From the NCBI GenBank assembly GCA_944333345.1, contig CALVKW010000003.1, positions 1-33,903 on the forward strand: 33,903 bases of DNA. The letters are read 5' to 3'. The notes beneath the pieces were generated by a model, which saw only the letters and a program-made list of their open reading frames with translations, had not been told where the DNA came from and did no database searches. This document shows, in pieces, positions 1 to 33,903 of this stretch; position 1 is the first letter of the stretch, and each line of letters opens with the position of its first letter. Both the position numbers and the translations under genes were made by a program. Source of the DNA: an uncultured Bacilli bacterium. GTDB lineage: Bacteria > Bacillota_I > Bacilli_A > RF39 > UBA660.

Positions 1-5
1 ATGAG

Positions 6-2318: not shown

Positions 2319-2328
2319 GGTGTAAAAA

Positions 2329-2778: not shown

Positions 2779-2790
2779 AAAGGAGTAAAA

Positions 2791-3927: not shown

Positions 3928-3944
3928 ATACTAACTATTTTTTT
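3918..3944 (+). terminator. Intrinsic terminator
   Basis: AAATAGTTAG-ata-CTAACTATTT followed by a T run. Confidence 0.75.
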
Positions 3945-3967
3945 CATTTATTTTTAAACAAGGAACA

Positions 3968-3976
3968 TGATATAAT
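3968..3976 (+). promoter_or_regulatory. Extended -10 sigmaA promoter
   Basis: TGATATAAT, followed by SD AGGAG and ATG at 4001. Confidence 0.7.
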
Positions 3977-4000
3977 ATTGCCAAAAAAGAAGGAGATAGG

Positions 4001-4910
4001 ATGAATCAAAAAATATTAAAATTACTTTTTGATTATTCAAAACAAGGAAAGATAGTAGACATAAACTACATAGACAAATTAATAGAAATTGTAGTAAGTG
4101 AAAAAGACCTTAATAGATATGTTAAAGAAAAAAATAATGACAAAGGATGATTGCTTTACAAAAGAAGATAGAGATTATAATCAAATTACATTAGCAATCT
4201 ATGATGGATTTGAAACGATACGTCTTTATGCAAATAATATAAATAAGGTATTAGGATATTATACCCAGTACTTTCCACTATTTACTTCTATAGAACAATA
4301 CTTTTTCCAAAACATAATAATATCACAATCGGTTTTACATGAATTTGAACACGTCAATCAAGATAAAATGATAGCTGAAGATAACGAAGAAGAAAGTTTA
4401 GAAACAACGATATTAAAATTAACTGTCAAAAAATTTGATCCCGAAGATATACAAAAATTAATAGAAGATGGATGGACTTTTCAGGAAATAGAAATTGCTA
4501 TGTGTCTTGAATATAGAAAGAAAATAGAAAAATATAAGATTAATCCAAGTGAAAGACTGGCCGAAATTAAATCATATCAACAAATATTAGATATGTTAGA
4601 AATAATAAAAGTTTTTACACCGAATCTCATAGATTATGAAGAAACATCTCAGATGGAGAAATTTTTAAGAGGTTATAAAGAGTACTGGGGGATGATAATT
4701 GCGCCAACCTATGAATATATCCTAGATTCTAGAGCCCTTCAAAAACTTTCTAAATTTCATGCCTATCTGAATTATGATGACAGTCTAAAAGGAATAAAAA
4801 AATACCATTCCTTAGAAACAAGACTAACTTACGGATTGCCAATTGATTGGCAAGAATATCAATATGGCCAAGATGTAGTTCAAATGTCAAAAAAATATAA
4901 TGGAGGATAA
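4001..4910 (+). pseudogene. Frameshifted HExxH zincin-like protein (true start 4001; +1 shift near 4124-4134)
   Basis: The promoter and SD point to ATG 4001 (MNQKILKLLFDYSKQGK..., TGA at 4148-4150). Removing one base at the A7 run joins it to the 4098..4910 frame, which contains VLHEFEHVNQ and PSERLAE. Confidence 0.65.
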
Positions 4911-4922
4911 AAACAGTAAAAT

Positions 4923-4951
4923 TTGACATATAACCAAACAAGAAGTATAAT
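4923..4951 (+). promoter_or_regulatory. Perfect consensus sigmaA promoter
   Basis: TTGACA (4923-4928), N17, TATAAT (4946-4951). Confidence 0.85.
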
Positions 4952-4976
4952 ATGCACTACTTAAAGGGGGATTAGT

Positions 4977-5615
4977 ATGGACTTAAAAATGGTAATTACT
5001 GGATTAACAGGTCAAATTGGTGAGTTAGAAAAAGAGATAAAAGAGGTAAAACAGGAAAAAGAAGTACTAGAGCTTATGGATGGTTAAAAAAATGTTAAAA
5101 ATCCTACACTAGGATATAATACAATGTTTTTTAATCAAGAAATATCAAAAGATGCAATGGAAGAATTTATCAGTTTATTAGAGGCTGATGAATATTTAAA
5201 AGGTCAATCAAATGGAGGACATGATTTTGGTGGGGAACATAAAAGAGAATCAACGTTTGATCATTATTACTTAACATTTGGAGAAGGAACACTACTAGAG
5301 TTGACATTTAGAGAGTCAGAGTTCAAGGGGTATGAAGAAATATCTAGAGAACCAATCAAAGAGTGTGGTGTATCATGTAAAATGTATATCAGTGAAGAGG
5401 ATTTAGTATTTCAAACATCATATGAATATGGATTCCCTATGTTAAAGATGAATCAAGGAGAAAATGAAATCTTTTCATCACCAACACTAAAAAATGACTA
5501 TAGTCAATGTAACGGTAGAAAAGTAAATGAAGTATTATCTCCAATTTCACCAGAGACATTAATTGAAAGATTTTATGAAAAAAAACAACAAGAAGTAAAG
5601 AAACAGACCAAATAA
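4977..5615 (+). pseudogene. Hypothetical protein with in-frame premature TAA (codon 37)
   Basis: SD AAAGGGGG and ATG 4977 (MDLKMVITGLTGQIGELEKEIKEVKQEKEVLELMDG*) are in frame with the 5124..5615 ORF; single stop at 5085-5087. Confidence 0.7.
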
Positions 5616-5651
5616 ATATATAAAATCAAATGATAAAAAGGAGAAAATTAA

Positions 5652-6641
5652 ATGAGAAAAAATGAATATATGAGAAATAAAACTGAGTTTGAAAACGCAA
5701 TGGAAAGACAAGGATTTAGAAAACATAAAAAACGTGGTGCTTGGATAAAATGTGGATTAGGTATGTTTTTAACAAATACGAGTGATTTTGATGAGAATGA
5801 TGATTATTTAGATATCATGAAAACAGATCAATTCTACCAAGGTTATTTAGAGATGGGTTGTGAATTAGTTCTTGGACCTGCAGTAGCAACAACAGCTGAT
5901 GGAAAAACACATGCTAAACATGCAGTATATTTAAAAAATTATCAAGAATATTTTGAAAAACTAGAAAAAATATATCAAGAAAGACAAAAAAATGATACTC
6001 TACCAAAATCCATTTCTGAAGAAAGAAAACAAGAAACAGCACCTACTCCAGAAGAAGTAAATAAAGATTCTGAAGAAAATGAAATAGATAAAATTGTTGC
6101 TCAATTTCAACGCATTGCAAATAATTACGAGTTGGCCAGAAAACATTCAATGATTGGGTTTGGTTTTAACATGGAAGATATGATTGATACAGCAATTGAC
6201 AATCTATATAGTTTAGAACAAGAAGTAGCAAAAAAACATCAGGGAAAGGAACTATACGATATCATATGTAGCTTACAAACCAACCTAACTGGAATAGAGT
6301 CTTGTAAGCCTCATATCATTTATGCACTAGAGACTAGTTTATTTAACCAAATTGCAAAAGATAAACAAACAGCACCATCCGATAAAATAAATACCAATAT
6401 TGCTTATGGTTATACTGCGTTAAATGAAAGAGGCTCTAGTGATATAAGTGACTTTGTAGAAAGAGTAAATACCTATCCACTAGAAGAAAGATGTGCAATA
6501 ATAACTGGTATAGCAAAGCAATATGCAGATAAGAATACTGAACTTCCCAATAGCGCAGTAACAATGTTTCATAATATAAGAGAAGGAATTTTTCAAGAAA
6601 TATTTTCTGATCAGTCAATGAAAAATATAGTTAAACAATAA
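5652..6641 (+). CDS. Hypothetical protein; N-terminal domain shared with the 11035 ORF, then a linker and a helical C-terminal part
   Basis: 329-aa ORF, SD AAGGAG; motifs GCELVLGPA and HAVYLKNYQE. Confidence 0.75.
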   Translation: MRKNEYMRNKTEFENAMERQGFRKHKKRGAWIKCGLGMFLTNTSDFDENDDYLDIMKTDQFYQGYLEMGCELVLGPAVATTADGKTHAKHAVYLKNYQEYFEKLEKIYQERQKNDTLPKSISEERKQETAPTPEEVNKDSEENEIDKIVAQFQRIANNYELARKHSMIGFGFNMEDMIDTAIDNLYSLEQEVAKKHQGKELYDIICSLQTNLTGIESCKPHIIYALETSLFNQIAKDKQTAPSDKINTNIAYGYTALNERGSSDISDFVERVNTYPLEERCAIITGIAKQYADKNTELPNSAVTMFHNIREGIFQEIFSDQSMKNIVKQ

Positions 6642-6674
6642 AAACTACTTGAATACTACGAAAAGTAGTTTTTT
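6641..6674 (+). terminator. Intrinsic terminator
   Basis: AAAACTACTT...AAGTAGTTTT inverted repeat with a T tail. Confidence 0.65.
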
Positions 6675-6689
6675 ATATTAAAAAAACTA

Positions 6690-6698
6690 TGTTATAAT
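6690..6698 (+). promoter_or_regulatory. Extended -10 promoter
   Basis: TGTTATAAT upstream of the SD and ATG 6721. Confidence 0.7.
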
Positions 6699-6720
6699 AA
6701 AAAACTAAGGAAGTGATAAA

Positions 6721-7509
6721 ATGGCAGATTCAAAGAAAATAGAAGGGGAACTATATATCGCAACCTATGGTAGTAGTAAAGAACGTGATTTCAGTAAAAG
6801 AAATCAAATCTGGAAAGAAATAAAAGATAACAAAGAATTATTACTAGATGCCATTCAAGTAATAAGAAATAGATGGAATGACGGAGATACATTAAAAAGT
6901 TTGGCCATATCAGAAGCAATACTATCATCTGCAGTAACAGAAGACAAAGCACCAGATAAAATTTATAAAAAACTAGCAGGAGAAGTTTACAGCAACAAAG
7001 ATATCGCAAGAATAGCACTAACTGCCCCAGGTTTCGGAGGACAAGGGAACTCTTTCTTATTAATCAGCCTATGGAAAGAAGATTTCCCCCTAACCGAAGC
7101 ACAAAAACAATTTGCGGTATCAGAAGCAAAAGAAAAAGTTAATAATAATATCACCCATGGCTATGGTGAATATGATATAAGATATTATATTTTAAGGAAT
7201 CAAAATTGGACCGAAGAAGAAAAATCACGTCTTATAATGGACTTTTATCCAAGACAAGAAGAATATGAAAATATGTTAGATGCTTGGGAATGGGGAATAG
7301 TAAATGGATGTGTGGGTCACGGACCTATACTAGATAAAACGGAACTTTATGAATATTCTTATGATCAAATACATCATCTTTATCGAAATCAAGAAGTAGC
7401 AGACAGTATATGGAGTGAAATAGAATTCTGTAGACAAATGAATAAATTAAGGACTTGGAAAAATATACCAGTACAAAAAAAGAATGCAAGGCCTATACCA
7501 AAGAATTAA
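6721..7509 (+). CDS. Hypothetical protein
   Basis: 262-aa ORF with promoter and SD; no recognised family. Confidence 0.7.
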   Translation: MADSKKIEGELYIATYGSSKERDFSKRNQIWKEIKDNKELLLDAIQVIRNRWNDGDTLKSLAISEAILSSAVTEDKAPDKIYKKLAGEVYSNKDIARIALTAPGFGGQGNSFLLISLWKEDFPLTEAQKQFAVSEAKEKVNNNITHGYGEYDIRYYILRNQNWTEEEKSRLIMDFYPRQEEYENMLDAWEWGIVNGCVGHGPILDKTELYEYSYDQIHHLYRNQEVADSIWSEIEFCRQMNKLRTWKNIPVQKKNARPIPKN

Positions 7510-7525
7510 GAAAGAAGGAAAGAAT

Positions 7526-8536
7526 ATGGAACAAAGAAAAGAATTTAATTGTAGGGTAAATGATTTACTTGCCCTATATCATATACAAGATGATTTTGAA
7601 AACTTTAATGAACAGTTAAAGGAATTAGCTAAAAATAATAAAATGGCTGATATTATTCATTATCTAATAAAAGCATCCATGGGAATGTTTAGTCTAACAA
7701 AAAGGAAAATAACTAGATTTTATCGTGAAAATCAAACAGTCATGGATAAAATTAATAAACATTCTGATATTTTTATATTTCTATCTTCCAATTATGAAAG
7801 AAATGGAACCGCAAAAGAAGGTATCCTTGGTTACTATCATTATTTATTAGCTCATAAGGATCAACAAGACAATATTTTAGCGTTATTAGAGAAACTAAAA
7901 GACTTAGAAATAAAAGATATCAAATTGATAGAAGGAAAAGATTTTAAAAACGAAGAATATAGCATAAGTAGCAATAGTTTTTGCTCTCCACCACGGTTTT
8001 CTTTTCTAGAAAATATGAAGATAATACCAGAATATCCATCTTCCACTATGAAATATAAAACAACAGGCTCCAATTATAAATTAATGATAGGTTCCTCTTT
8101 ATCCTACAGTAGCACTCCGCTTATTCCTGGTATGAATCATATTGAGGTAAGCAATCTAACATTCAATCCGCAATCTCTTCCAAACAAAATCACTAAGGAA
8201 TCTACCTATGATAAAATTATACAGCTATCTAAAGGAACAAATATTCAACAGGAGTTAAGGGAAGTGGTTAACTTGAGCATAAGTATTCATGATTTAGAAG
8301 AACAAGCAAAATCTACGGCTACCACTTTTGGAAAAGTAGACGGGATGAATGAAAGTCCAGATTTTTTAGAGGCGCTAACACAAATTAGAAGTGGAATTAG
8401 TAAGCTATACGCATTAGAAGAAAGCCACGAACAAGCTTTAACAACAGAAAATCCAGAGCTTACTAGACAATTAATTCAAGAAGAACAGAAAAAACATTTA
8501 AAAAGAAGAGAACTTAGTACATTAGACATTGATTAA
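7526..8536 (+). CDS. Hypothetical protein (start moved from 7484 to 7526)
   Basis: SD GAAGG before ATG 7526 removes the overlap with the upstream gene. Confidence 0.7.
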   Translation: MEQRKEFNCRVNDLLALYHIQDDFENFNEQLKELAKNNKMADIIHYLIKASMGMFSLTKRKITRFYRENQTVMDKINKHSDIFIFLSSNYERNGTAKEGILGYYHYLLAHKDQQDNILALLEKLKDLEIKDIKLIEGKDFKNEEYSISSNSFCSPPRFSFLENMKIIPEYPSSTMKYKTTGSNYKLMIGSSLSYSSTPLIPGMNHIEVSNLTFNPQSLPNKITKESTYDKIIQLSKGTNIQQELREVVNLSISIHDLEEQAKSTATTFGKVDGMNESPDFLEALTQIRSGISKLYALEESHEQALTTENPELTRQLIQEEQKKHLKRRELSTLDID

Positions 8537-8554
8537 GAAAAAAGGTGAAGAAAT

Positions 8555-9538
8555 ATGAAAAACAATTATCCAATTAAATATGCAGCGATGCCTATTATGG
8601 GTTATGTTGCATGGCAAAGAGAAGAAGCAATCGCATACATTGCCTCAAAATGTTTTCAACTAAAAGAAACAACAGAATACTTTAGAAATGGTGACATAGA
8701 AACAAGCTATTCCGTACTATTTCCATATAAAAAAGTAGTAGATAACAGCAACTCTATGAGATGGGAAAGAATAGAACCATCTATAGAAAATGAACAAGAA
8801 ATAATAACCGTAAGAAACGTATATAACACGATCGAAGAAGCAGAGCAAGAAGCGGAAAGAAACAATAAAATATTATTAGAGCAAAAACTAAGAAATATCT
8901 ATACAACCGCCGATAATTTTCAACAGGAACGAAAAAAAGTAGAAAAAAACCATCAAGAACAAATAGAATTTTACAAAAAATTAGAACAAGAAATCGAAGA
9001 AAAAACAAAAGATTTAACGATAGGCCTTCCACCAAAGTTACAAAATGTTATTGTCATGGATAATAGTGGAATAAAGGAATACGAATTATCATTATATGAA
9101 TACGTTTGGTTTGTAGATAGAACCCCTTTTACTGTTTTTCATATATCGGAAGATGCTTATCAAAATTTAAGTAAAAAAATAGCCGAATATAAAGAAATAG
9201 AACCAGGGGATATCATAGAAATAGAGCCTATTTTAATATACGATTCAGAAAAGAAATTAATGCAACTAAGAAATCCTAATGGAGAAGAAAATGAAGGCTT
9301 CCTATATCTAAGATCTCACAGAGGTCAAAAATATATGTATTACGAGGAAAGTCAAGAACTAACCTTAGAGGATATAGCATCTCATCCAGATGAAAAAAAG
9401 ATATTTACCATGGAAACCTATGAAGATATTGTAGCCTCTTATCTTCCATATTTTATTTTCCCAGAGGAAAAATCTCCCGAGAAGAAAAAAACACATTGCA
9501 AAACAATGGTTAATCCTAATATTACTTTGGCAAAGTAG
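8555..9538 (+). CDS. Hypothetical protein with central coiled coil
   Basis: 327-aa ORF, SD AAGGTGA. Confidence 0.7.
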   Translation: MKNNYPIKYAAMPIMGYVAWQREEAIAYIASKCFQLKETTEYFRNGDIETSYSVLFPYKKVVDNSNSMRWERIEPSIENEQEIITVRNVYNTIEEAEQEAERNNKILLEQKLRNIYTTADNFQQERKKVEKNHQEQIEFYKKLEQEIEEKTKDLTIGLPPKLQNVIVMDNSGIKEYELSLYEYVWFVDRTPFTVFHISEDAYQNLSKKIAEYKEIEPGDIIEIEPILIYDSEKKLMQLRNPNGEENEGFLYLRSHRGQKYMYYEESQELTLEDIASHPDEKKIFTMETYEDIVASYLPYFIFPEEKSPEKKKTHCKTMVNPNITLAK

Positions 9539-9688
9539 GAGAAAGCCCTGACTTAGACAACACATTAAAAACAGAAATGGTAAATAATCTTATATCTTAT
9601 CAAATAGAGAAATCTTAAACGCAACAAAACCATCATCATTTAAGAAATTTGATAACACACGATTCTAAAAAGAAACGAGGAAATTATT

Positions 9689-10801
9689 ATGTTAGTAGAA
9701 AAGTATAGTTCTCTAAATCAAGAAAGAGCGGATAAAAGATTAGAAAGATATTTTAAAACAAAAACACTACAACGTCTAAAAGGAAAAGGAATGTTCTGTG
9801 GAATGGATTATACGGGCATAAAAATAATAAGACCTATAGAATATTATTCTAGATATGACCATTCAAAAAATGTAGCGAATACTGCCTGCAAACTATCAGA
9901 TGAACTAAAAGTAGCTTTAGCCGGAGCTTTTCATGATGTAGGAACATTATCCTTTGCTCATGTAAATTCATTTAAAAAGAAAGACGCAATGCACCAAGCA
10001 TCCGATGAATTAAAAATAGAGTCCGTCCTAAAACAAGATGAAGAACTTTTAGAATACTTACATGAAGATAAAATAGAATTAAAAGACGTCACAAATCCAG
10101 AACAATATCCTCTAATAGATAAAGAAATTCCAGCACTTTGTCTAGATAGATCGGATGGTATATTAGCTACTTGTCTTTTCTGGGCACATACACATTCCTT
10201 CGAAGAAATCAAAGCTCTATATTACATGCTTGCTTATTTTGAAAATTTAAATGGCCAGTGTGTAGATATTTTTAATTCTCGTTTTGAAAACTTTACCGGA
10301 GAAATGGCCTTAGATGAAGGTTATGATGCAGAATTTGAAGACTTTTTTAGCGCAATCAACATATATAGTAAATTACAATTAACAAAAGAAGACCGCTATT
10401 TTATGGAGCTTCTTGGATTGGCTCTAAACTATTATGAAGATATAGGGACCATTCAAGAAGAAGACTTATTTTGCTTAAGCGAACAAGAAATTATAGATAA
10501 AATATTCGATAGTAAAGAAAAAAGTGTTTTAGAAGATATTTTATCCCTAGAAGAAGTCCGTTACGCAACGTCAGAAGATAATGGTATTGTAGTAATAACA
10601 CAACCAAAAATTCGTCAATGCAACCCTCTATGTTTCAATCACATGGCGTTATGCGAAATTAATGATATTTCCGGACAATTTTATCAGGAATTAAATCCGC
10701 TATTTAAGGATATCTGTCTAACGAAGAGACCAATTACAGGAAGTTTAAGTAAGGATACCGTAAAGAAACTATCCAAATATCTAAAACCTAGACAAAATTA
10801 G
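9689..10801 (+). CDS. HD-domain phosphohydrolase (SAMHD1/YwfO-like HD superfamily)
   Basis: SRYDHS ... AGAFHDVG..FAH ... LDRSD motif order (H...HD...D). Confidence 0.8.
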   Translation: MLVEKYSSLNQERADKRLERYFKTKTLQRLKGKGMFCGMDYTGIKIIRPIEYYSRYDHSKNVANTACKLSDELKVALAGAFHDVGTLSFAHVNSFKKKDAMHQASDELKIESVLKQDEELLEYLHEDKIELKDVTNPEQYPLIDKEIPALCLDRSDGILATCLFWAHTHSFEEIKALYYMLAYFENLNGQCVDIFNSRFENFTGEMALDEGYDAEFEDFFSAINIYSKLQLTKEDRYFMELLGLALNYYEDIGTIQEEDLFCLSEQEIIDKIFDSKEKSVLEDILSLEEVRYATSEDNGIVVITQPKIRQCNPLCFNHMALCEINDISGQFYQELNPLFKDICLTKRPITGSLSKDTVKKLSKYLKPRQN

Positions 10802-10808
10802 TTTTTTA

Positions 10809-10817
10809 TGATATAAT
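10809..10817 (+). promoter_or_regulatory. Extended -10 promoter
   Basis: TGATATAAT before SD AGGGGTG and ATG 10844. Confidence 0.65.
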
Positions 10818-10843
10818 ATGCCCAAGTAAGAGGGGTGAATATT

Positions 10844-11011
10844 ATGAAAAGAATAGAAAAGAAAATATTTTTAACGGATAAAAAAAGTGGTAAAAAAATA
10901 TTAATAAGTAGTCAAGAAAAACATTTATCAAAAAGTAATAATAATATCAAGAGTAACTTTTATTTAAGAAGTTATAGAAATCCACAAACGATAGAAAACT
11001 ATGTAAGATAA
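10844..11011 (+). CDS. Small basic protein, 55 aa (not in ORF track)
   Basis: MKRIEKKIFLTDKKSGKKILISSQEKHLSKSNNNIKSNFYLRSYRNPQTIENYVR*; has its own promoter and SD and fills the intergenic gap. Confidence 0.55.
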   Translation: MKRIEKKIFLTDKKSGKKILISSQEKHLSKSNNNIKSNFYLRSYRNPQTIENYVR

Positions 11012-11034
11012 AAGAAAGAATAAAGGTGAGAAAA

Positions 11035-11577
11035 ATGCATACCAAACAAATTCGAGGGGTTATTATAAGTGAAGACTCATGTCGAGACACTAATAGAAAA
11101 AAGCTAGTACGAAATAAAGATTATATAAGAAGTAGAACTTATAACGCATACATATTACCAGGGTTTGGTGCCTGGATGGGAAATGTATCTGACCCTCCCA
11201 ACATCCATTCTCCTCATTATAGCGAGTTTGCTGAAGCGGGGTATGAATTAGTAGTAGGGCCAGCAAGTAATAGTTGGTGTGAGCATGGAATTTACTGTAA
11301 AAATTATCAAGAGTTATATCAATCAAAATTAGATGCCGTAGACAGATTAATAAAAAAGGATATATCTCCAAATAGCAAAAGAAAAGCGGTAGAACAATTG
11401 CTAAAAAGACAGCATATTACAACAAGCGACACACTAGACCAAAAGTTAAGAAAAGTACTAAGTGTAATGGATTTTCTTGGTACAAAACAAGAGGTTAGAA
11501 AAAGAACGGAAAATTTTAGTGCAGAACAAATAGCAGAAAATCCAAAAGTATATAAAAGAGCAATCACAAGAAGATAG
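11035..11577 (+). CDS. Hypothetical protein sharing a domain with the 5652 ORF
   Basis: SD AAAGGTGAG before ATG 11035; motifs GYELVVGPA and HGIYCKNYQE. Confidence 0.75.
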   Translation: MHTKQIRGVIISEDSCRDTNRKKLVRNKDYIRSRTYNAYILPGFGAWMGNVSDPPNIHSPHYSEFAEAGYELVVGPASNSWCEHGIYCKNYQELYQSKLDAVDRLIKKDISPNSKRKAVEQLLKRQHITTSDTLDQKLRKVLSVMDFLGTKQEVRKRTENFSAEQIAENPKVYKRAITRR

Positions 11578-11590
11578 ATTGTTCTTTTCT

Positions 11591-11619
11591 TTTACAAAAA
11601 ATATAATCTTTGTTATAAT
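11591..11619 (+). promoter_or_regulatory. sigmaA promoter of tkt
   Basis: TTTACA-N17-TATAAT with extended TG. Confidence 0.7.
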
Positions 11620-11641
11620 GAACTCATAAGGAGTGATTTTT

Positions 11642-13633
11642 GTGATAAATCCCAAAAGAGACGAGAGTGAAATTAATGAGGAGAAAATCGTAGATCAAAT
11701 TCGTTCATTAGGAATAGATATGATTGACGAAGCAGGAAGTGGTCACCCTGGAATAGTCTTAGGTGCAGCACCTATCATCTATAGTCTATATGCTCACCAT
11801 TTAAAATTTGATCCTAATCATCCGGATTTTTATAACAGAGACCGATTTATTATGTCATCAGGGCATGGATCAGCATTGTTATATGCAACACTTTATATGG
11901 CTGGATATCCACTAACACTAGAGGATTTAAAATCATTTAGACAAATAGATTCCAAGACACCAGGGCACCCAGAATATAAAACTACCCCAGGAGTAGAAGT
12001 AACAACAGGTCCTCTTGGGCAAGGATTCGCAACTGCCGTAGGTATCGCTATGGCAGAAGCAAATTTAAGTGCGAAATTTAATAAAGGTAAAAAAGAAATC
12101 ATTAACTACCATACTTATGTATTATGTGGTGATGGTGATTTAATGGAAGGGATAAGCTATGAAGCGGCATCTCTTGCTGGAACATTAAAACTAAATAAAT
12201 TAATTGTATTATATGACTCTAACGATATATGTCTAGACGGAGATACCTCTCAATGTTTTACGGAAAATGTAGCGATGCGTTTCATTGCCCAAGGTTGGAA
12301 TGTTATTTCAGTTCCAGATGGAAACAATATCCCATCAATTACAAAGGCAATAGACGATGCCAAAGCATCAACCGATAAGCCAACCTTAATAGAAATAAAA
12401 ACAACAATCGGTAAATATTCTAAATTAGAAGGAACAAATCTTGTTCATGGAGGACCATTAGAAAAAGAAGATATTACTTCTATTAAAGAAAAAATGCAAA
12501 TTAGAGATATTCCATTTACAATTTCTCAAATAACTATGGATGACTTTCAAACATTTATCCATAATCGATGCAAAAATATCGTAGAAAAATTTGAAAAACA
12601 ATTGGAAGGGCTAGATGAAAAAGAAAAAAAAGAACTACAAGATTTCATGAATGGTAAAAAAACATTTGATATTAAAGATGTAATTTATGAAGCTCCACAA
12701 GAAAAAGAGGAAGCGACAAGAATCACCTCTGGAAAAATACTATCATCTATCACTCGAACATATCCATCCATTATTGGAGGAAGTTCCGATGTCTTTAAAC
12801 CTACAAAAACTTATGTAAAAGAAGTGGGAGATTTTAAAAGCGATAATTACCAAGGAAAAAATATTTTCTTCGGTGTCAGAGAACATTGTATGGGAGCAAT
12901 TCTAAATGGGTTTGCCTTATGTGGATATCATCCATATGGATCAACATTCTTAAGTTTTAGTGACTATTTAAAGCCAAGTATTAGAATGTCTGCCATGATG
13001 GATTTACCAGTAACTTATATTTTTACTCACGATTCTATCAGTATAGGGGAGGATGGCGCGACTCATCAACCAGTAGAACAATTATCTTCACTTAGAGCCA
13101 CTCCAAATCTAGAAGTCTTCCGTCCTGCAGACGCTAACGAAGTAATCGGGGTATATCGTACTATCTTTGAAAAAGAAAGCGGGCCATCCGTTATAGTATT
13201 ATCACGAAACAAAACTCCAATATTAGAAACAACCAAAATAAATGAAATTTCTAAAGGTGGATATATTGTATTCGATACCGAAAGGAAACCTTCTGGTATC
13301 TTAATCGCAACAGGAGAAGAAGTCCATCTAGGAATAGAAGTCGCCAAAAGATTAAAAACCAAAGGAATGGATATTAGAGTAGTATCTATGCCATGTATCA
13401 AACGTTTTGAAAATCAAGATCAAGAATATATAGATAATGTTTTACCGGTAGAAATAAGAAAAATAGTTATTGAAGCAGCCTCATCTATGTCATGGAATAG
13501 CATAGTCTTTAACAAGAAATATCTAATCACTCTAGATAATTATGGGGCATCTGGTAAAAAAGAAGATGTCTATAAAAAATTTGGATTTGACATCGATTCA
13601 TTAGAAGAAAAAGTAGAAAATTTATTAAAATAA
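11642..13633 (+). CDS. tkt: Transketolase
   Basis: SGHPG, RDRFIMSSGHGSALLY, TTGPLGQG, GDGDLMEG (ThDP motif), FGVREH, GEDGATHQPVEQ; probable GTG start at 11642 after SD AAGGAGTG. Confidence 0.97.
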   Translation: MINPKRDESEINEEKIVDQIRSLGIDMIDEAGSGHPGIVLGAAPIIYSLYAHHLKFDPNHPDFYNRDRFIMSSGHGSALLYATLYMAGYPLTLEDLKSFRQIDSKTPGHPEYKTTPGVEVTTGPLGQGFATAVGIAMAEANLSAKFNKGKKEIINYHTYVLCGDGDLMEGISYEAASLAGTLKLNKLIVLYDSNDICLDGDTSQCFTENVAMRFIAQGWNVISVPDGNNIPSITKAIDDAKASTDKPTLIEIKTTIGKYSKLEGTNLVHGGPLEKEDITSIKEKMQIRDIPFTISQITMDDFQTFIHNRCKNIVEKFEKQLEGLDEKEKKELQDFMNGKKTFDIKDVIYEAPQEKEEATRITSGKILSSITRTYPSIIGGSSDVFKPTKTYVKEVGDFKSDNYQGKNIFFGVREHCMGAILNGFALCGYHPYGSTFLSFSDYLKPSIRMSAMMDLPVTYIFTHDSISIGEDGATHQPVEQLSSLRATPNLEVFRPADANEVIGVYRTIFEKESGPSVIVLSRNKTPILETTKINEISKGGYIVFDTERKPSGILIATGEEVHLGIEVAKRLKTKGMDIRVVSMPCIKRFENQDQEYIDNVLPVEIRKIVIEAASSMSWNSIVFNKKYLITLDNYGASGKKEDVYKKFGFDIDSLEEKVENLLK

Positions 13634-28625: not shown

Positions 28626-28661
28626 AAAAATACACTCGTAAATAATAACAAGTGTATTTTT
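28626..28661. terminator. Bidirectional terminator
   Basis: AAAAATACACT...AGTGTATTTTT between convergent genes. Confidence 0.7.
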
Positions 28662-29533
28662 TATTGATATAGTTCTTGTCGAAGCAAATCTAAATTATTA
28701 TTCATAATATCAATATAATCAAGATTATCAGAACGATCACTATCAGATAAATTATCTAATTTATGTAACTCTTGTCTTTTTAAATCAGGGTAGTCATCAA
28801 GTAATTTTTGTGCATTATCATTTAATGAATCACCTTGGAACATATATAAATATGATATTTCACCACTCTCAATCAATTCTTCAGCATCACTTATCGTCTT
28901 AGCAGTAGCATCACTATCAATACATATAACAGTTAATCCAAACTTTTCTAAATAATTCAAAGTAGAGCTAGCAACAACAATAGTTTTATGACTTGTATTT
29001 TCAACCATCAAACGATAATCAGCATCAAGTTCAGAAAGATCAACTTTTAATTTTTCATACGCTTCATCAATATCACGTTTTATATAATTACTAGTAACAT
29101 ATTCTTCTAGGCCAATGCGCACATTTTGGGCCATCATTAATAAAGAAGAAGGGTTTAACCATAACTCTTCAGGAGAGTAATCTGTTTCTAACACATAAGC
29201 AGAATCAATTATTCTTAAATTAGAATTTAAATCTAACAAATCAAACGTCAAATTACTCTCTTTTTTTATCAGTCCATTATAAATAAATAAGTCATAATTA
29301 CTAAAATCACGTTTTTGCTTTTTATTAATACGATATTCATCAATATCGACTCCATCTGGATAAACAGAAGTAACGGTAGAATGTTCACCATACAACTTTT
29401 GCGTAATATATTCATTAGGATAATTAGTGACTAAAATACGTATATCATCCATATTATCTTGCTTACAACCCGTAGTAGTAAATATTATAGTAATAAATAA
29501 CACAAATAATAGTAATAACTTTTTTCTTTTCAT
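28661..29533 (-). CDS. ZnuA/TroA-like ABC substrate-binding lipoprotein (atypical ligands)
   Basis: Own SD AAGGAG and ATG; signal peptide with TTGC lipobox; [31 protein letters not shown]. Confidence 0.75.
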
Positions 29534-29755
29534 TCTTTTTCTCCTTACTTTCGTTACCGGATCATAACCATATCCTCCAAGAGGATGACATCTAAGAATT
29601 CGCTTTATCCCAAGATATATTCCATACCAAACACCATGAATTTCAATAGCTTCTATCATATAATTGGAACAAGTTGGGATAAAACGACAACTTGCGTGAA
29701 ACCTTCCTGGTATCTTTTGATAAAAGCGAATAAGCGATATAATTGTCCTCTTCAC
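29534..29755 (-). CDS. yidD: Membrane protein insertion efficiency factor YidD (no stop codon; reads into the downstream lipoprotein)
   Basis: [27 protein letters not shown]; GTG start at 29755 after SD GGGGG. Confidence 0.9.
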
Positions 29756-29844
29756 AAATGGTCCCCCAGTCATTATATTACATATTTCATTTTACTATAA
29801 ACCACATAAAATAGCAATTATAAGTATACTATTTTCTATATTTT

Positions 29845-30935: not shown

Positions 30936-32588
30936 ATGAGTAAAATTAAAATTTTTGCATTGGGCGGCCTAAATGAAAATGGAAAAAATATGTATATTGT
31001 CAACGTAGATAAAGATATTTTTGTTTTTGATGCCGGACTAAAATATGATAATGATATTAAATTAGGAATTGACTACATTATTCCTAACTTTGATTACTTA
31101 ATAAAGAATAAGAAAAATATTAAAGGAATATTTTTAACCCATGGACACGAAAGTAATATGGGAGCGGTTCCAGACATATTAGAACAACTACCAAATATTC
31201 CAGTATATGGAACGAAACTAACACTGGAAATGGTAAGAAATGATTTAGAGCCAAACCAGATAAAGAAAGCAAATTTAAAAGAGCTAAAGCCACATACAAA
31301 ACTCAATTTTGGTAAAAACTCAATTTTCCCAATCAGTGTAACACATTCCATACCAGATGCAGTATGTTACGTATTATATACTCCAGACGGCGCTATCGTA
31401 TATACCGGAGATTTTGTTTTTGACGCAACGATGCGAGGGGCTTTCAAAACAGATATCGGAAAACTTGCCTATGTCGGAAAACAAGGAGTATTATGCTTAA
31501 TGGCAGAGTCATTCTATGCCGAAAAAGAAGGTCATACTTCACCGAATAATAGAGTAGCAGGATTTATAAGAGAAGTATTTGCAAAAAATCAAAATAGAAT
31601 TATTGCCACTATATTCCCAGCCCATTTCTATCGTATCCAAGAGATTTTTAATGAAGTATCAAAGACTCATAGAAAGCTGGTAATCATGGGAAAGACTCTT
31701 CAAGATACTATCAACAAAGCGATAGAAGAAGGATATCTAGTATTAGATAAAAACAAAATAGGAACGCTCTCTGACCTAGAGAATAAAGATACTATAGTTT
31801 TAATTTCTGATGAAAAAGAAAAACCATTCAATAACCTAGAACGTATTATCAAAGGATACGATAAATATATTAAGATTAAAGAAACGGACACCATATTTAT
31901 TACGGAACCGTCTTATCCAGGGATAGAAAAAAGATCAGCTTTAATCATGGACGAAATTGCTATGCTAGGTGCCAATGCTGTAAGTTTATCAAGTAAAAAA
32001 CATTTGCTACACCATGCATCACGGGAAGATTTAATGTTAATGATAAATTTAATGAATCCTAAATACTATTTTCCAGTAAAAGGGGAATATAGAAATCAAT
32101 ATGCTAATGCCGAAGTGGCCGAAGAATTAGGCATTCCTAAAGAAAATATTATTTTAAAAGAGAATGGGGATGTTGCAGAGTTCATGAAAGGAAAACTTAC
32201 TGGAAGTAAAGAGCATATTGAGATAGATCAAATATTAATTGATGGAAAAAGCCAGGGGGATATTGGAAATCTAGTTTTAAAAGATAGAGAAATGCTTGGT
32301 GAAAATGGAATCGTAATTATTAGCTGTACTCTCGACAAGCAAACAAAAGGAATTTTAGGTGGGCCAGAAATTTTGACCAGGGGATTTGTTTATGTAAAGG
32401 AAAGCCAAGATTTATTAGAGCAAACAAAAATTATTGCCAAAGAAGTAATAGAGGCAAACATTGAAAAAAACACCAAAAGAGTAGATTATGCAAAAATAAA
32501 AAATGAAGTTAGAGAATACTTAGGAAAATATTTCTATCAAGAAACAGAATCAAAACCAATGATTATCACAGTAATTCAGGAAGTGTAA
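30936..32588 (+). CDS. rnj: Ribonuclease J family protein, J2-like (degenerate catalytic motifs)
   Basis: ALGGLNENGKNM, THGHESNMG, THSIPD, YTGDF, GPEILTRGFVYV. Confidence 0.92.
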   Translation: MSKIKIFALGGLNENGKNMYIVNVDKDIFVFDAGLKYDNDIKLGIDYIIPNFDYLIKNKKNIKGIFLTHGHESNMGAVPDILEQLPNIPVYGTKLTLEMVRNDLEPNQIKKANLKELKPHTKLNFGKNSIFPISVTHSIPDAVCYVLYTPDGAIVYTGDFVFDATMRGAFKTDIGKLAYVGKQGVLCLMAESFYAEKEGHTSPNNRVAGFIREVFAKNQNRIIATIFPAHFYRIQEIFNEVSKTHRKLVIMGKTLQDTINKAIEEGYLVLDKNKIGTLSDLENKDTIVLISDEKEKPFNNLERIIKGYDKYIKIKETDTIFITEPSYPGIEKRSALIMDEIAMLGANAVSLSSKKHLLHHASREDLMLMINLMNPKYYFPVKGEYRNQYANAEVAEELGIPKENIILKENGDVAEFMKGKLTGSKEHIEIDQILIDGKSQGDIGNLVLKDREMLGENGIVIISCTLDKQTKGILGGPEILTRGFVYVKESQDLLEQTKIIAKEVIEANIEKNTKRVDYAKIKNEVREYLGKYFYQETESKPMIITVIQEV

Positions 32589-32589
32589 T

Positions 32590-33057
32590 ATGAAAAAGAA
32601 AGTAGTTATATCTATGGTAATGACAATAACGATTTTTTGTTGTACTGCCTGTAATCCGGAAACAGGTACAATGACCTGCAAAATGAGTTCTTATCCCACA
32701 GATGGAATTACACTACGTTCCACATATACTGCAGAATATAAAAATAATATTGTAAAAACTCTAGAAACAACAGAACAAGTCACTGCAGAAGACAAAGATA
32801 ATTTAGAAGTATACAAAGAACGAATACAAGAGTTATATCAAGGATATCAAGGAATTGATTATTATCAAAATAAAACAGAAATTAAAGGAAATACATTAAC
32901 AAGTACTACTAAAATCAACTATGAAAAAGTAGATACAGATAAATTAATTGAAGTAGATAGCGATAATGGTGGTATAATAAGAAATGGAAAGGTTAACATT
33001 GATGATTTAAGAGAAATGTACGAACAAAACGGATGTAATTGCAAGAAGGAGGAATGA
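32590..33057 (+). CDS. Lipoprotein, YehR/DUF1307-like
   Basis: Signal peptide with CTAC lipobox; beta-rich body, INYEKVD, C-terminal YEQNGCNCK. Confidence 0.65.
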   Translation: MKKKVVISMVMTITIFCCTACNPETGTMTCKMSSYPTDGITLRSTYTAEYKNNIVKTLETTEQVTAEDKDNLEVYKERIQELYQGYQGIDYYQNKTEIKGNTLTSTTKINYEKVDTDKLIEVDSDNGGIIRNGKVNIDDLREMYEQNGCNCKKEE

Positions 33058-33058
33058 C

Positions 33059-33448
33059 ATGTTCGTAACAAATAATATATATAGAATACCAGTATATAGT
33101 ATAGTGAAAGATAAATTAATATCCGAAAAAAGGACAATAGAAAACATTGGTTGGGGATTAGTAGAAAAAGGCCCATTTCATCCAGCAACAGATGCGATTA
33201 GTAATTTCTCATTTGCTGAAATAGAACAAACGTCCGAAGGAAAAATTTTAGGCTATAGTGAGCAAGCATTACAAGACGATAAACAAGTATTGGCCGTGTT
33301 CAAAACAGATTTTACTCCAGAAAATATAGCAAATAAACAAGTCAGACAAGATTATATAGAAGAGTATTTTCAATCAGGGGTAATAAAAGAACGTCAAGAA
33401 GCCATCGTAACGGAAAGAAGATTAAAAGGAATGAAAAATACAAAATAG
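33059..33448 (+). CDS. Hypothetical protein
   Basis: 129-aa ORF with SD AAGGAGG. Confidence 0.65.
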   Translation: MFVTNNIYRIPVYSIVKDKLISEKRTIENIGWGLVEKGPFHPATDAISNFSFAEIEQTSEGKILGYSEQALQDDKQVLAVFKTDFTPENIANKQVRQDYIEEYFQSGVIKERQEAIVTERRLKGMKNTK

Positions 33449-33472
33449 TTTTAACAATCGTTAAAGCTTTCT

Positions 33473-33512
33473 GTCCTCGTAGCTCAGCAGGATAGAGCAA
33501 TCGCCTCCTAAG
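33473..33512 (+). pseudogene. 5' half of tRNA-Arg(CCT), truncated just after the anticodon loop (candidate att site)
   Basis: GTCCTCG TA GCTC AGCAGGATA GAGC A ATCGC CTCCTAA G, then no matching anticodon stem or T arm. Confidence 0.85.
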
Positions 33513-33520
33513 GGGTTGTT

Positions 33521-33557
33521 TAAAATAAAGGAAAATGTTTTAGAAACCTTTATTTTA
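33521..33557. repeat. Perfect 11-bp inverted repeat
   Basis: TAAAATAAAGG-N15-CCTTTATTTTA. Confidence 0.85.
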
Positions 33558-33586
33558 CGAGGAAGGACAGAATTTAAAGAAATAAG

Positions 33587-33608
33587 ATAGTCGCAAAATA
33601 GTCGCGAA
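33587..33608. repeat. Tandem 11-bp direct repeat (integrase arm-site-like)
   Basis: ATAGTCGCAAA ATAGTCGCGAA. Confidence 0.75.
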
Positions 33609-33693
33609 AATTTGTCTTTATCTTTAAAAAAAACAATAAAGTTTTGAAAAATTACCTTAATTTTGATATTTATTTGTTAAGATTAAGGTATAT

Positions 33694-33770
33694 GTCCCTG
33701 TAGCATAATAGGAAAATGCCTTCGCCTCCTAAGCGAAAGATTGGGTGTTCGAGTCACCTCAGGGACGCCA
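33694..33770 (+). tRNA. tRNA-Arg(CCT), complete, CCA encoded
   Basis: Acceptor GTCCCTG/CAGGGAC, D stem GCAT/ATGC, anticodon stem TTCGC/GCGAA with loop CTCCTAA, T arm GGGTG-TTCGAGT-CACCT, G-CCA end. Confidence 0.93.
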
Positions 33771-33785
33771 TTTTTGTGTTAATTC

Positions 33786-33824
33786 AACTGATTTAGATAC
33801 TATAAACTAAATCAGTTTTATTTT
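33786..33824 (+). terminator. Terminator after the tRNA
   Basis: AACTGATTTAG-N10-CTAAATCAGTT plus TTATTTT. Confidence 0.7.
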
Positions 33825-33828
33825 GTAA

Positions 33829-33903
33829 ATGTTAGGAGAAAATGGTATTGTTATTATTAGTTGTACTCTAGATAGAGAGACTAAAAAGATATTAGCAGGA
33901 CCA
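33829..33903 (+). pseudogene. 5'-truncated diverged copy of the RNase J C-terminal region (runs off the window)
   Basis: MLGENGIVIISCTLDRETKKILAGP vs MLGENGIVIISCTLDKQTKGILGGP at 32292-32366; in-frame TAA immediately upstream. Confidence 0.85.

What the first reader, a model, noticed from the sequence alone, without database searches (positions are those of the whole stretch)
33473..33824. tRNA-Arg(CCT) broken at the anticodon loop and replaced by a complete, divergent isoacceptor 180 nt downstream
Seen: a canonical 5' half ends at ...CTCCTAAG (33512). A complete tRNA-Arg(CCT) at 33694-33770 shares the 12-mer TCGCCTCCTAAG, but its stems are self-complementary and differ from the fragment (GTCCCTG vs GTCCTCG; GCAT vs GCTC), so it is not the rejoined host gene. 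It has a possible extended -10 (TGTTAAGAT, 33675-33683) and a terminator. Knowledge: tRNA-targeting tyrosine integrases often cross over in the anticodon loop and normally restore the gene using a partial copy in attP. Inference: this element destroys the target and supplies a whole replacement tRNA, which could make the host dependent on it and also provides a fresh att core for tandem integration.
Basis: partly seen in the sequence, partly recalled or inferred. Interest (0 to 1): 0.8.

Follow-up and report, generated by a model that had tools for sequence, protein, structure and literature searches.

The report
Mobile element replaces host arginine tRNA
An integrating mobile element cut this gut bacterium's tRNA-Arg(CCT) gene in two at the anticodon loop, did not repair it, and brought its own complete copy instead, a trick so far described for some phages.

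Summary
Window 33473-33512 is the 5' half of the native tRNA-Arg(CCT). Eleven of 21 genomes of the same genus carry that tRNA intact at the same place, after RNase J and a DUF1307 gene. The gene is cut after the 8-bp core CTCCTAAG (anticodon loop plus one base).

What follows is the left arm of an integrative element. It holds a hairpin, the repeat GTCGCAAAATAGTCGCGA and a promoter-like stretch, then a complete, well-folding, foreign tRNA-Arg(CCT) (33694-33770) with a terminator.

In a sister species (G007) the missing native 3' half lies 5.3 kb downstream. It sits behind the same core, the element's right arm and a tyrosine integrase remnant. Related elements have a 594-598 aa integrase, an excisionase-like gene and, in one, a conjugative coupling protein.

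The same design, with at least seven different host 5' halves, occurs in 10 of 13 genome loci and 3 of 3 metagenome contigs found with the element tRNA.

The element tRNA carries the core too and is itself a target. L065 shows two nested insertions, and G000 contig C15 shows a right arm joined to the 3' half of another element-type tRNA.

In this genome the integrase is a 140-aa stump, so the insertion is fixed. The principle was published for actinobacteriophages in 2024 as tRNA-dependent lysogeny. This is a non-phage, Bacillota variant. Host dependence is not shown.

The parts
30936..33448 (+). Chromosomal backbone upstream of the tRNA: RNase J (30936-32588), a DUF1307 protein (32590-33057) and a 129-aa ORF (33059-33448).
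   Evidence: Pfam hits. RNase J-DUF1307 lies just upstream of tRNA-Arg(CCT) in relatives at 73-80% DNA identity.
33473..33504 (+). 5' half of the native tRNA-Arg(CCT): acceptor strand, D arm and the 5' strand of the anticodon stem. This is the host side of attL.
   Evidence: 86-93% identical to the 5' half of intact tRNAs at the same site in relatives. ARAGORN and Rfam call no tRNA here.
33505..33512 (+). Common core CTCCTAAG: the anticodon loop CUCCUAA plus the first base of the 3' stem. This is the crossover region of attL.
   Evidence: It is the only stretch shared by attB, attL, attR and the attP-like junctions in the table.
33513..33613 (+). P' arm of the element's attachment site, with a hairpin (33523-33531 pairing with 33547-33555) and a GGACAGAATTT...GTCGC...GTCGC block.
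   Evidence: Conserved behind the core in 10 of 13 loci. Its positions 51-117 align to the right arm on C15 (score 40 against a shuffle maximum of 36). Fold.
33590..33607 (+). Direct repeat GTCGCAAAATAGTCGCGA. It is a putative arm-type integrase binding site: two GTCGCRA units 11 nt apart.
   Evidence: One match in the window against 0 in 100 shuffles. The motif stands in 38 of the 85 loci fetched by then. Where an arm was read it lies in that arm; G007 has one in each arm, on the same strand (L025 5590 and 10638).
33614..33693 (+). tRNA-proximal stretch, probably captured together with the tRNA gene. It holds an extended -10-like TGTTAAGAT at 33675-33683.
   Evidence: The matching 80 nt of element L060 align to the native upstream region of the same tRNA type in L066 (score 78 against a shuffle maximum of 44). 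For G000 itself the alignment is borderline (41 against 40). TGTTAA[GA]AT is conserved. The strict promoter scan was negative.
33694..33770 (+). Complete element-borne tRNA-Arg(CCT), type v1, with encoded CCA.
   Evidence: ARAGORN; Rfam 62.2 bits; 21 of 21 cloverleaf pairs; cloverleaf as minimum-energy fold. A near-identical tRNA follows different broken host tRNAs in 10 loci.
33726..33733 (+). Second copy of the core CTCCTAAG, inside the element tRNA, flanked by a near-identical anticodon stem (TCGC/GCGA). It is a potential secondary attB.
   Evidence: It was used as a crossover point in L065 (v1 5' half + core + P' arm). An equivalent site was used on G000 C15 (right arm + core + v2 3' half).
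33786..33826 (+). Intrinsic-terminator-like hairpin (33786-33817) with a U-rich tail, behind the element tRNA.
   Evidence: -10.7 kcal/mol, z -2.74. Conserved behind the tRNA in G007, L056, L061, L064, L065 and L068.
33827..33903 (+). In-frame fragment of a foreign RNase J gene (NGIVIISCTLDRETKKILAGP), joined to the element flank at the 12-nt microhomology AAATGTTAGGAG. It replaces the HTH_36 gene that follows in other elements.
   Evidence: 100% identical over 77 nt to the RNase J gene of another MAG (L085) and 78-91% to relatives. Only 28 of 32 nt match the window's own RNase J. The join is bridged by a contig of another study (X2 record 13).

Best explanation
A tyrosine-integrase element integrated by site-specific recombination into the anticodon loop of the chromosomal tRNA-Arg(CCT) gene. 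Intact relatives of the element look like integrative conjugative or mobilizable elements.

The element's attachment site shares only 8 bp (CTCCTAAG) with the tRNA, so neither junction rebuilds the gene. The 5' half stays at the left junction (33473-33512). The 3' half is pushed to the far end, behind the integrase gene.

The element carries, 181 nt inside its left end, a complete tRNA-Arg(CCT) gene with its own promoter-like stretch and terminator. This gene was probably captured from another Bacilli lineage, where the same tRNA type is chromosomal. It takes over AGG decoding.

This tRNA keeps the core and a near-identical anticodon stem, so it is also a landing site for further copies. That produces nested or tandem arrays.

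In this genome the element has decayed. Only the last 140 residues of the integrase remain, and a foreign RNase J fragment has replaced the first cargo gene. The replacement tRNA is therefore now a fixed part of the chromosome.

Shown: the four kinds of junction, the core, the synteny, the integrase and its decay, the foldability and wide recurrence of the design, and the nested junctions.

Inferred: that the integrase makes the cut, that the GTCGCRA repeats are its arm sites, that the element tRNA is expressed and charged, and that it was captured.
For: attB (empty site). An intact native tRNA lies after RNase J-DUF1307 in G003, G006, G008, G009, G012, G016, G018 and G019, in G014 and G020, and in G010, where it is cut 7 nt before its end by the contig end. 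That is 11 of 21 genus genomes.

attL. Broken native 5' half + core + arm + complete foreign tRNA stands in G000, G004, G007 and G002.

attR. In G007 the native 3' half lies at L013 11807-11843, 2 mismatches from the G012 sequence. It directly follows ...AAAACTCTTCT + CTCCTAAG, 5.3 kb from attL. A Phage_integrase ORF lies about 270 nt before it.

Matching halves on two contigs of one MAG, with a full-length integrase:
- L065 and L026
- L068 and L027
- L073 and L031

Integrase. It is 594-598 aa with SAM-like and catalytic domains. An HTH_17 excisionase-like gene precedes it in L032 and L031. L032 also has an SNF2 protein and a TraG/VirD4-type coupling protein.

attP-like junction. Right arm + core + left arm stands in L029.

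Recurrence. 10 of 13 genome loci and 3 of 3 metagenome contigs that hold the v1 tRNA show a broken host 5' half upstream. There are at least 7 different host sequences.

tRNA quality. All 12 compared tRNAs form 21 of 21 pairs, and 12 of 21 pairs carry double-sided changes.

Capture. The v1 tRNA sits among chromosomal-type genes without the arm in L057 and L066.

Nesting. L065 reads N5'-core-arm-v1 5' half-core-arm-complete v1. G000 C15 reads right arm-core-3' half of the v2 tRNA seen whole in G002.

Decay in G000. tblastn finds integrase residues 455-594 only.
Against: - No recombination, expression or charging was measured; every step is read from sequence.
- The strict promoter scan found nothing before the element tRNA.
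- In G000 the native 3' half was not found. The window ends 133 nt after the tRNA, so the two ends are not joined on one contig. The only right-arm junction in G000 (C15) abuts a v2-type 3' half, not the native one.
- No excised circle was found. The attP junction occurs in 1 genome contig, inside an array, in 0 viral contigs and in 0 metagenome contigs.
- No contig holds a full-length integrase together with both ends.
- A conjugation gene was seen in one relative only (L032). None was found in G000.
- Three genomes (G021, L029/L092, G436) show a different layout: an intact tRNA directly abuts the element's HTH_36 gene. So the attP core is not the only place where these elements have recombined.
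- Need for the element tRNA is doubtful.
Confidence: 0.85

Rival explanations
1. Canonical restoring island. The complete tRNA at 33694 is the regenerated host gene (element-supplied half plus host half). The fragment at 33473 is the displaced piece, and only about 180 bp of the island remain.
For: Most tRNA-targeting islands work this way (abstract of PMC4383910, seen in the listing). Three related genomes do show an intact tRNA directly abutting element genes.
Against: Both halves of the 33694 tRNA differ from the native gene of the genus in compensating fashion. Near-identical whole tRNAs follow at least 7 different host 5' halves. In G007 the native 3' half lies 5.3 kb away behind the right arm.
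Confidence: 0.02
2. Assembly chimera, or local duplication and decay of a tRNA gene without any mobile element.
For: G000 is a fragmented MAG: 189 contigs, 63% complete. The contig ends 133 nt after the tRNA, and its last 77 nt come from another gene.
Against: The same junction appears in independent assemblies of other species and in a contig of another study (X5 record 29). Right arm, integrase and the displaced 3' half are present in relatives.
Confidence: 0.01
3. The element tRNA is kept mainly for something other than complementing the broken gene. It could serve as a portable landing site for related elements. It could also be a variant that escapes anticodon nucleases aimed at tRNA-Arg. 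The host does not need it.
For: - AGG is rare.
- tRNA-Arg(TCT) exists in relatives.
- Three 92-94% complete genus genomes lack any CCT tRNA in their assemblies.
- The element tRNA has served as an integration target.
- The Discussion of PMC10865867 raises defence against tRNA-degrading systems as a possible selective force.
Against: All element tRNAs keep a perfect cloverleaf with compensatory changes, an encoded CCA and the CCT anticodon. That argues for selection on translation. In L029, where an intact tRNA stands beside it, the second copy has lost its anticodon (CTCATAAG). This is what one expects if one working copy is what matters.
Confidence: 0.15
4. The junctions were made by homologous recombination between tRNA genes of element and host, not by the integrase at the 8-bp core.
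For: Element and host tRNAs share 12-40 nt runs. The layout in L029, G021 and G436 (an intact tRNA next to element genes) could arise by a crossover anywhere in the tRNA-terminator homology.
Against: In the window-type layout the partner of the host tRNA is not a tRNA. It is an arm that shares only CTCCTAAG, and the break is at the same base in every host despite different flanking sequence.
Confidence: 0.03

Closest known systems
tRNA-dependent lysogeny of actinobacteriophages (Fionnbharth, LeBron, Gaia and others; Guerrero-Bustamante and Hatfull, mBio 2024, PMC10865867; I read the abstract, sections 5, 6 and 10 and the Discussion)
   Same: A tyrosine integrase recombines at an attB inside a host tRNA gene. 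The common core is short (8-17 bp there, 8 bp here), so no tRNA is rebuilt. [quoted passage not shown] Putative arm-type sites flank the core. Close relatives that rebuild the tRNA exist alongside.
   Different: - Those are temperate phages of Actinobacteria. Here no phage gene was seen, and relatives carry an excisionase-like gene, an SNF2 protein and a coupling protein.
- The host is a low-GC gut Bacilli lineage.
- The target is tRNA-Arg(CCT), which reads a rare codon and may be dispensable. There the target is an essential single-copy tRNA-Lys, tRNA-Ile2 or tRNA-Leu.
- Here the tRNA gene sits 181 nt from the core on the attachment-site arm, keeps the core, and is itself used as a target. 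The sections I read describe the Fionnbharth tRNA as lying elsewhere, overlapping gene 37, and do not report this.
- Necessity was shown by genetics there and not at all here.
Prophage Lj965 of Lactobacillus johnsonii (known to me only from the Discussion of PMC10865867; I did not read the primary papers)
   Same: A Bacillota element that is reported not to rebuild the tRNA at its junction and to encode a cognate tRNA.
   Different: It is a prophage. I could not compare tRNA identity, core or layout.
Canonical tRNA-targeting genomic islands (Islander database; abstract of PMC4383910 as listed)
   Same: A tyrosine integrase, a tRNA gene as target, a crossover in the anticodon loop, and a displaced tRNA fragment marking an island end.
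   Different: Canonical islands regenerate the target from island sequence. Here both ends are fragments, and a separate whole gene is supplied.
Tandem accretion of integrative elements at one attachment site
   Same: Successive elements pile up at one site because a usable att site persists after integration.
   Different: There the regenerated host site is reused. Here the reusable site is a tRNA gene that the previous element brought in.

Membership tests
tRNA-dependent lysogeny type of integration (PMC10865867) | Tyrosine-integrase recombination between attP and an attB that overlaps a host tRNA gene. | tested here: met
   attB, attL, attR and attP-like junctions share CTCCTAAG. A Phage_integrase gene lies next to attR. 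This is sequence evidence only.
tRNA-dependent lysogeny type of integration (PMC10865867) | The common core is too short to rebuild a functional tRNA at either junction. | tested here: met
   The core is 8 bp. No tRNA is called at the attL fragment, in the C15 contig, or beside the one element tRNA in the G007 locus L013, which spans both junctions.
tRNA-dependent lysogeny type of integration (PMC10865867) | [quoted passage not shown] | tested here: met
   tRNA-Arg(CCT) at 33694-33770. The same holds in 10 of 13 genome loci and 3 of 3 metagenome contigs.
tRNA-dependent lysogeny type of integration (PMC10865867) | The element tRNA is required for survival of integrants. | not testable with these tools
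   Indirect signs point to a weak requirement: AGG is 7% of Arg codons, tRNA-Arg(TCT) is present in relatives, and some genus genomes show no CCT tRNA.
tRNA-dependent lysogeny type of integration (PMC10865867) | The element is a temperate phage. | tested here: not met
   No phage structural or lysis family appeared among the element ORFs scanned. L032 has a TraG/VirD4-type coupling protein. The attP junction is absent from viral contigs. Only parts of elements were seen.
Integrative conjugative or mobilizable element | An integrase plus excisionase module together with conjugation or mobilization genes. | tested here: inconclusive
   L032 has Int, HTH_17 (excisionase family, 22.8 bits, below the 28.8 cut-off), SNF2 and a coupling protein. 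L031 has the same ORF layout (2100, 171, 193, 110 and 597 aa), with no family scan run. No relaxase was looked for or seen. G000 has none of these.
Heterobivalent (lambda-type) integrase attachment site | Arm-type repeats on both sides of the core and an extra N-terminal domain in the integrase. | tested here: inconclusive
   GTCGCRA-N4-GTCGCRA stands once in each arm, on the same strand. About 170 residues precede the SAM-like domain without a Pfam hit. Binding was not tested.
Canonical restoring tRNA island | An intact target tRNA is regenerated at one junction from island sequence. | tested here: not met
   Window, G007, G004, G002 and others have fragments at both ends. A restoring-like layout does exist in G021, L029 and G436.
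tRNA (Rfam RF00005) | The score reaches the gathering threshold and the cloverleaf forms. | tested here: met
   62.2 bits against 29; 21 of 21 pairs. The whole-window gathering scan missed it.

The most novel reading that the evidence does not exclude
The element-borne tRNA-Arg(CCT) is a portable attachment site. Each integration kills the resident copy, whether native or brought by an earlier element, and installs a new whole gene. That gene becomes the next landing site. Arrays therefore grow by a tRNA relay, and the tRNA-Arg(CCT) gene of whole lineages of gut Bacilli is replaced horizontally by one foreign allele. The same family can also recombine at the tRNA itself, giving layouts with two whole tRNAs.
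Probability: 0.55. Interest if true: 0.65.

Novelty: new variant of a known kind. Interest (0 to 1): 0.5.

Why it matters
First, it extends a mechanism shown in 2024 for actinobacteriophages to non-phage integrative elements of uncultured, small-genome gut Bacillota. The mechanism is integration that breaks a tRNA gene and pays for it with an element-encoded copy. This suggests the strategy is broader than lysogeny.

Second, tools that map islands by looking for a regenerated tRNA plus a displaced fragment would misplace or miss these elements.

Third, it is a concrete route by which a tRNA gene is replaced across species. In at least 13 genomes, the only whole tRNA-Arg(CCT) seen at the locus is the foreign one.

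Fourth, the tRNA doubles as a target. This gives a simple, testable explanation for nested arrays at this locus. It also offers a compact attP-tRNA-integrase cassette that could be tried as an integration tool in low-GC bacteria.

Tried and rejected
Native 3' half in G000. A search allowing up to 9 mismatches found none. The assembly is 63% complete, so this says little.

Exact expected strings. CCTAAGCGAT was not found in G000.

Promoter. The strict promoter scan of 33300-33903 gave 0 sites. I keep the promoter as an inference from conservation.

Excised circles or further arrays.
- The attP junction pattern found 1 genome contig, the L029 contig.
- It found 0 viral contigs.
- It found 0 metagenome contigs.

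Right end of the G021 element. No right arm, arm motif or integrase lies within 10 kb.

Laid contigs. Most records start at 33478-33483 because the tRNA 5' half is shared by many organisms. By the 31-letter rule only X5 record 29 bridges the left junction. I do not use the depth peak at 33478-33511. No RNA run holds the stretch, so expression could not be examined.

Last 77 nt of the window. I first thought they were an assembler tip. I rejected that after X2 record 13 bridged the join and after finding that only 12 nt are shared between the two sources.

Type-B layout (L029). I considered integration at the element tRNA's own core, two deletions in a tandem array, and homologous recombination. 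I could not decide among them.

MAFFT alignment A2. It misplaces the 2-nt longer variable loop of the v2 tRNA, so I counted pairs by position in a script instead of using count of structure pairs. Alignment A1 used coordinates that were wrong by 7 nt and was discarded. The first pair count used acceptor indices that were off by one and was replaced.

Not used. Structure prediction, complex prediction, the large protein searches and the atlas were not used, because the question was answered by DNA comparison.

Supplements. Supplementary files of PMC10865867 (its Fig. S1/S2 arm sites) were not seen.
Full report
WHAT IS THERE

The window is a whole 33.9-kb contig (C3) of a fragmented metagenome-assembled genome: 189 contigs, 1.59 Mb, about 29% G+C, 63% complete. 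Its genes are ordinary chromosomal ones: transketolase, UvrC, MutL, germination protease, SpoIIP, RNase III, RNase J and a DUF1307 protein. Runs that hold the stretch are mostly labelled chicken gut metagenome.

At 33473-33512 the sequence reads as the first 40 bases of a tRNA-Arg(CCT): acceptor strand, D arm, 5' anticodon-stem strand, loop CTCCTAA and one G. It then turns into AT-rich non-tRNA sequence.

ARAGORN and Rfam call one tRNA in the window, a complete tRNA-Arg(CCT) at 33694-33770 (62.2 bits against a gathering score of 29), and nothing at the fragment.

THE FRAGMENT IS THE NATIVE GENE

I searched 60 related genomes with the last 1.3 kb of the window. In the same genus, RNase J-DUF1307 is followed by an intact tRNA-Arg(CCT) whose 5' half matches the fragment at 86-93%. 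Its 3' half reads GCGATAGGTCGGCAGTTCGA.TCTGCC.G.GGACACCA.
- Intact in G003, G006, G008, G009, G012, G016, G018 and G019.
- Intact in G014 and G020.
- Intact in G010 up to the contig end, 7 nt before the tRNA's end.

That is 11 of 21 genus genomes. The others are as follows.
- Four (G000, G004, G007, G002) have the broken 5' half followed by a complete foreign tRNA.
- G011 starts a contig inside the foreign tRNA, and G005 has another decayed arrangement.
- G017's contig ends exactly at the core.
- G001, G013 and G015 show no CCT tRNA.

THE OTHER END AND THE ENZYME

In G007 the missing native 3' half lies 5.3 kb downstream. It directly follows TTTTGAAATTTAAAACTCTTCT + CTCCTAAG. Between the two ends lie, in order:
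- the foreign tRNA
- an HTH_36 gene
- an Xre-type gene
- a TetR gene
- an ABC-2 membrane protein
- the C-terminal part of a Phage_integrase protein, about 270 nt before the right junction

Using that integrase piece I found 10 loci in other species.
- Five have an open frame of 594-598 aa: L026, L027, L030, L031 and L032.
- Four are truncated: L025, L029, L033 and L034.
- One is cut by a contig start: L028.

The full protein has SAM-like and catalytic domains, about 170 unassigned N-terminal residues and a C-terminal extension of about 110 residues. It is at most 30% identical to integrases in the phage and plasmid collections. In L032 and L031 it is preceded by an HTH_17 excisionase-like gene and a 2100-aa SNF2 protein. 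L032 also has a TraG/VirD4-type coupling protein. That points to a conjugative or mobilizable element rather than a phage.

THE ATTACHMENT SITES

I lined up the empty site, the left and right junctions and an attP-like junction. The only shared stretch is CTCCTAAG, the seven-base anticodon loop plus the first base of the 3' stem.

The left arm (33513-33613) has a hairpin and the block GGACAGAATTT...GTCGCAAAATAGTCGCGA. The right arm has a homologous block in the same orientation, about 130-175 nt before the core.

The repeat GTCGCRA-N4-GTCGCRA occurs once in the window against none expected. It stands in 38 of the 85 loci fetched by then, and wherever an arm was read it lies in that arm. These repeats are good candidates for arm-type integrase sites, as in lambda-like systems. 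Binding is inferred, not shown.

THE REPLACEMENT tRNA

The tRNA at 33694-33770 (type v1) differs from the native gene on both sides of its stems and forms all 21 cloverleaf pairs. So do a second element type (v2, 79 nt, in G002), a third (G005) and the native genes. Among the 12 tRNAs compared, 12 of 21 pairs carry double-sided changes. Its minimum-energy fold is the cloverleaf, it encodes CCA, and a hairpin with a U tail follows it.

No canonical promoter was found. However, TGTTAA[G/A]AT, an extended -10-like motif, is kept 11 nt before the tRNA in diverged elements.

The v1 tRNA also occurs without any arm, among chromosomal-type genes, in two other lineages (L057 next to a GreA-like gene; L066). 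The 80 nt before the tRNA in element L060 align to the native upstream region in L066, with a score of 78 against a shuffle maximum of 44. I infer that the element captured a whole tRNA gene with its promoter from such a lineage.

HOW GENERAL IT IS

An exact search for the v1 5' half in one genome per species gave 13 loci.
- Ten show a broken host 5' half + core + arm + complete v1 tRNA.
- Two show the native context.
- One is cut by a contig end.

Two of the ten are the G004 and G007 contigs again. The host halves differ widely; for example, GTCCCATTAGTAAAATGGATATTACAAGCCC stands in L063.

All three metagenome contigs found with the same pattern show the design as well.

A lineage whose integrase is only 70% identical has the same layout, with a diverged arm and its own tRNA variant. 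There the host 5' half (L073) and 3' half (L031) fit each other perfectly.

In a sample of 401 genomes of the family, 5 hold the tRNA end plus the v1-type flank.

THE ELEMENT tRNA AS A TARGET

L065 reads, in order:
1. host 5' half - core - arm (GGGTTG form)
2. v1 5' half - core - arm (GAGTTG form)
3. complete v1 tRNA

So a second, slightly different element went into the tRNA brought by the first.

In G000 itself, contig C15 holds right arm - core - 3' half of the v2 tRNA that is whole in G002, followed by the v2-type flank.

A DIFFERENT LAYOUT, UNEXPLAINED

A different layout exists in G021, L029 (identical to L092 over the roughly 430 nt that both printed) and G436. There an intact host-type tRNA directly abuts the element's HTH_36 gene. 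In L029 the far end reads right arm - core - left arm - chimeric tRNA (v1 5' half, CTCATAAG, host-type 3' half). A crossover in or next to the element's tRNA would give this. I could not tell whether the integrase or homologous recombination made it.

STATE IN THIS GENOME

Only integrase residues 455-594 remain (C15, 96% identical to L026). No second copy, HTH_36 gene or conjugation gene is in the assembly.

Directly behind the tRNA terminator, the last 77 nt of the window are an in-frame piece of a foreign RNase J gene. It is 100% identical to that gene in another MAG and is joined at a 12-nt microhomology. A contig from another study bridges the join. The insertion is thus an immobile remnant.

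DOES THE HOST DEPEND ON IT?

This is not shown.
- AGG is 21 of 298 Arg codons in 23 window ORFs.
- Relatives have a separate tRNA-Arg(TCT), which by wobble rules (my knowledge) can read AGG.
- Three genus genomes of 92-94% completeness have no CCT tRNA in their assemblies.
- In favour of selection for one working copy, element tRNAs are structurally perfect, and the redundant copy in L029 has lost its anticodon.

COMPARISON WITH WHAT IS KNOWN

The principle was published as tRNA-dependent lysogeny. Integrases of Fionnbharth, LeBron, Gaia and other actinobacteriophages use 8-17-bp cores in tRNA-Lys, tRNA-Ile2 or tRNA-Leu genes, do not rebuild them, and the phage-encoded cognate tRNA is required (PMC10865867; abstract, sections 5, 6, 10 and Discussion read). 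Its Discussion also mentions prophage Lj965 of Lactobacillus johnsonii.

A full-text search for the phrase found 23 papers. None of the 22 listed titles concerns conjugative or mobilizable elements, and I read none of them beyond the listing.

The present case shares every sequence-level feature. It differs in several ways:
- the element class (no phage genes seen)
- the host phylum
- a probably non-essential target
- the tRNA sitting on the attachment-site arm
- the tRNA's use as a secondary target

I file it as a new variant of a known kind.

VERDICT

The finding is of moderate interest.

Noticed in passing
window 33827-33903: The contig ends in a 77-nt in-frame fragment of an RNase J gene. 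It is 100% identical to that gene in another MAG (L085) and only about 88% identical over 32 nt to the window's own RNase J. It is joined to the element flank at AAATGTTAGGAG. Genes that follow RNase J in L085 (a 98-aa membrane protein and an ORF beginning MEEYKEVYK) also lie beside the integrase stump on G000 contig C15. This suggests that a chromosomal piece from another species was captured inside the remnant.
   Followed up: partly
L095 (G013:C42) about 140-453: A tRNA-Arg(TCT) gene is broken after its variable loop. A complete tRNA-Arg(TCT) follows about 190 nt later, and two HTH_3 regulator genes follow that. This may be a second family using the same break-and-replace design at another tRNA and another sublocation.
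   Followed up: partly
L078 (G005:C16) 140-304: At the syntenic site of G005, a decayed v1-like 5' half (with CTCGTAAG in place of the core) is followed after about 45 nt by a complete third variant of tRNA-Arg(CCT). This looks like a further layer of replacement.
   Followed up: no
L029 10985-11061: This is a chimeric tRNA: element-type 5' half and host-type 3' half. Its anticodon has changed from CCT to CAT, and ARAGORN calls it tRNA-Met. It stands next to an attP-like junction inside an integrated element.
   Followed up: partly
window 1-33903: The Rfam scan of the whole window at gathering thresholds returned no match. The same tRNA scores 62 bits when only 33300-33903 is scanned with permissive filters. 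The speed filters can evidently lose an AT-rich tRNA.
   Followed up: yes
window 28661-29773 (-): One 370-aa ORF carries both a YidD membrane-insertion-factor domain (residues 8-73) and a ZnuA zinc-binding lipoprotein domain (113-366). It is either an unusual fusion or two genes read through.
   Followed up: no
L077 (G198:C1) 1-11700: The element behind the v1 tRNA in this genome carries ORFs whose N-termini look like metal-sensing regulators and heavy-metal P-type ATPases, plus a TnpB-like ORF. I judged this from the first residues only and ran no family search.
   Followed up: no
L037 (G017:C20) contig end: This contig stops exactly at the last base of the core CTCCTAAG. That is what strain mixtures with and without the element would do to an assembly.
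   Followed up: no
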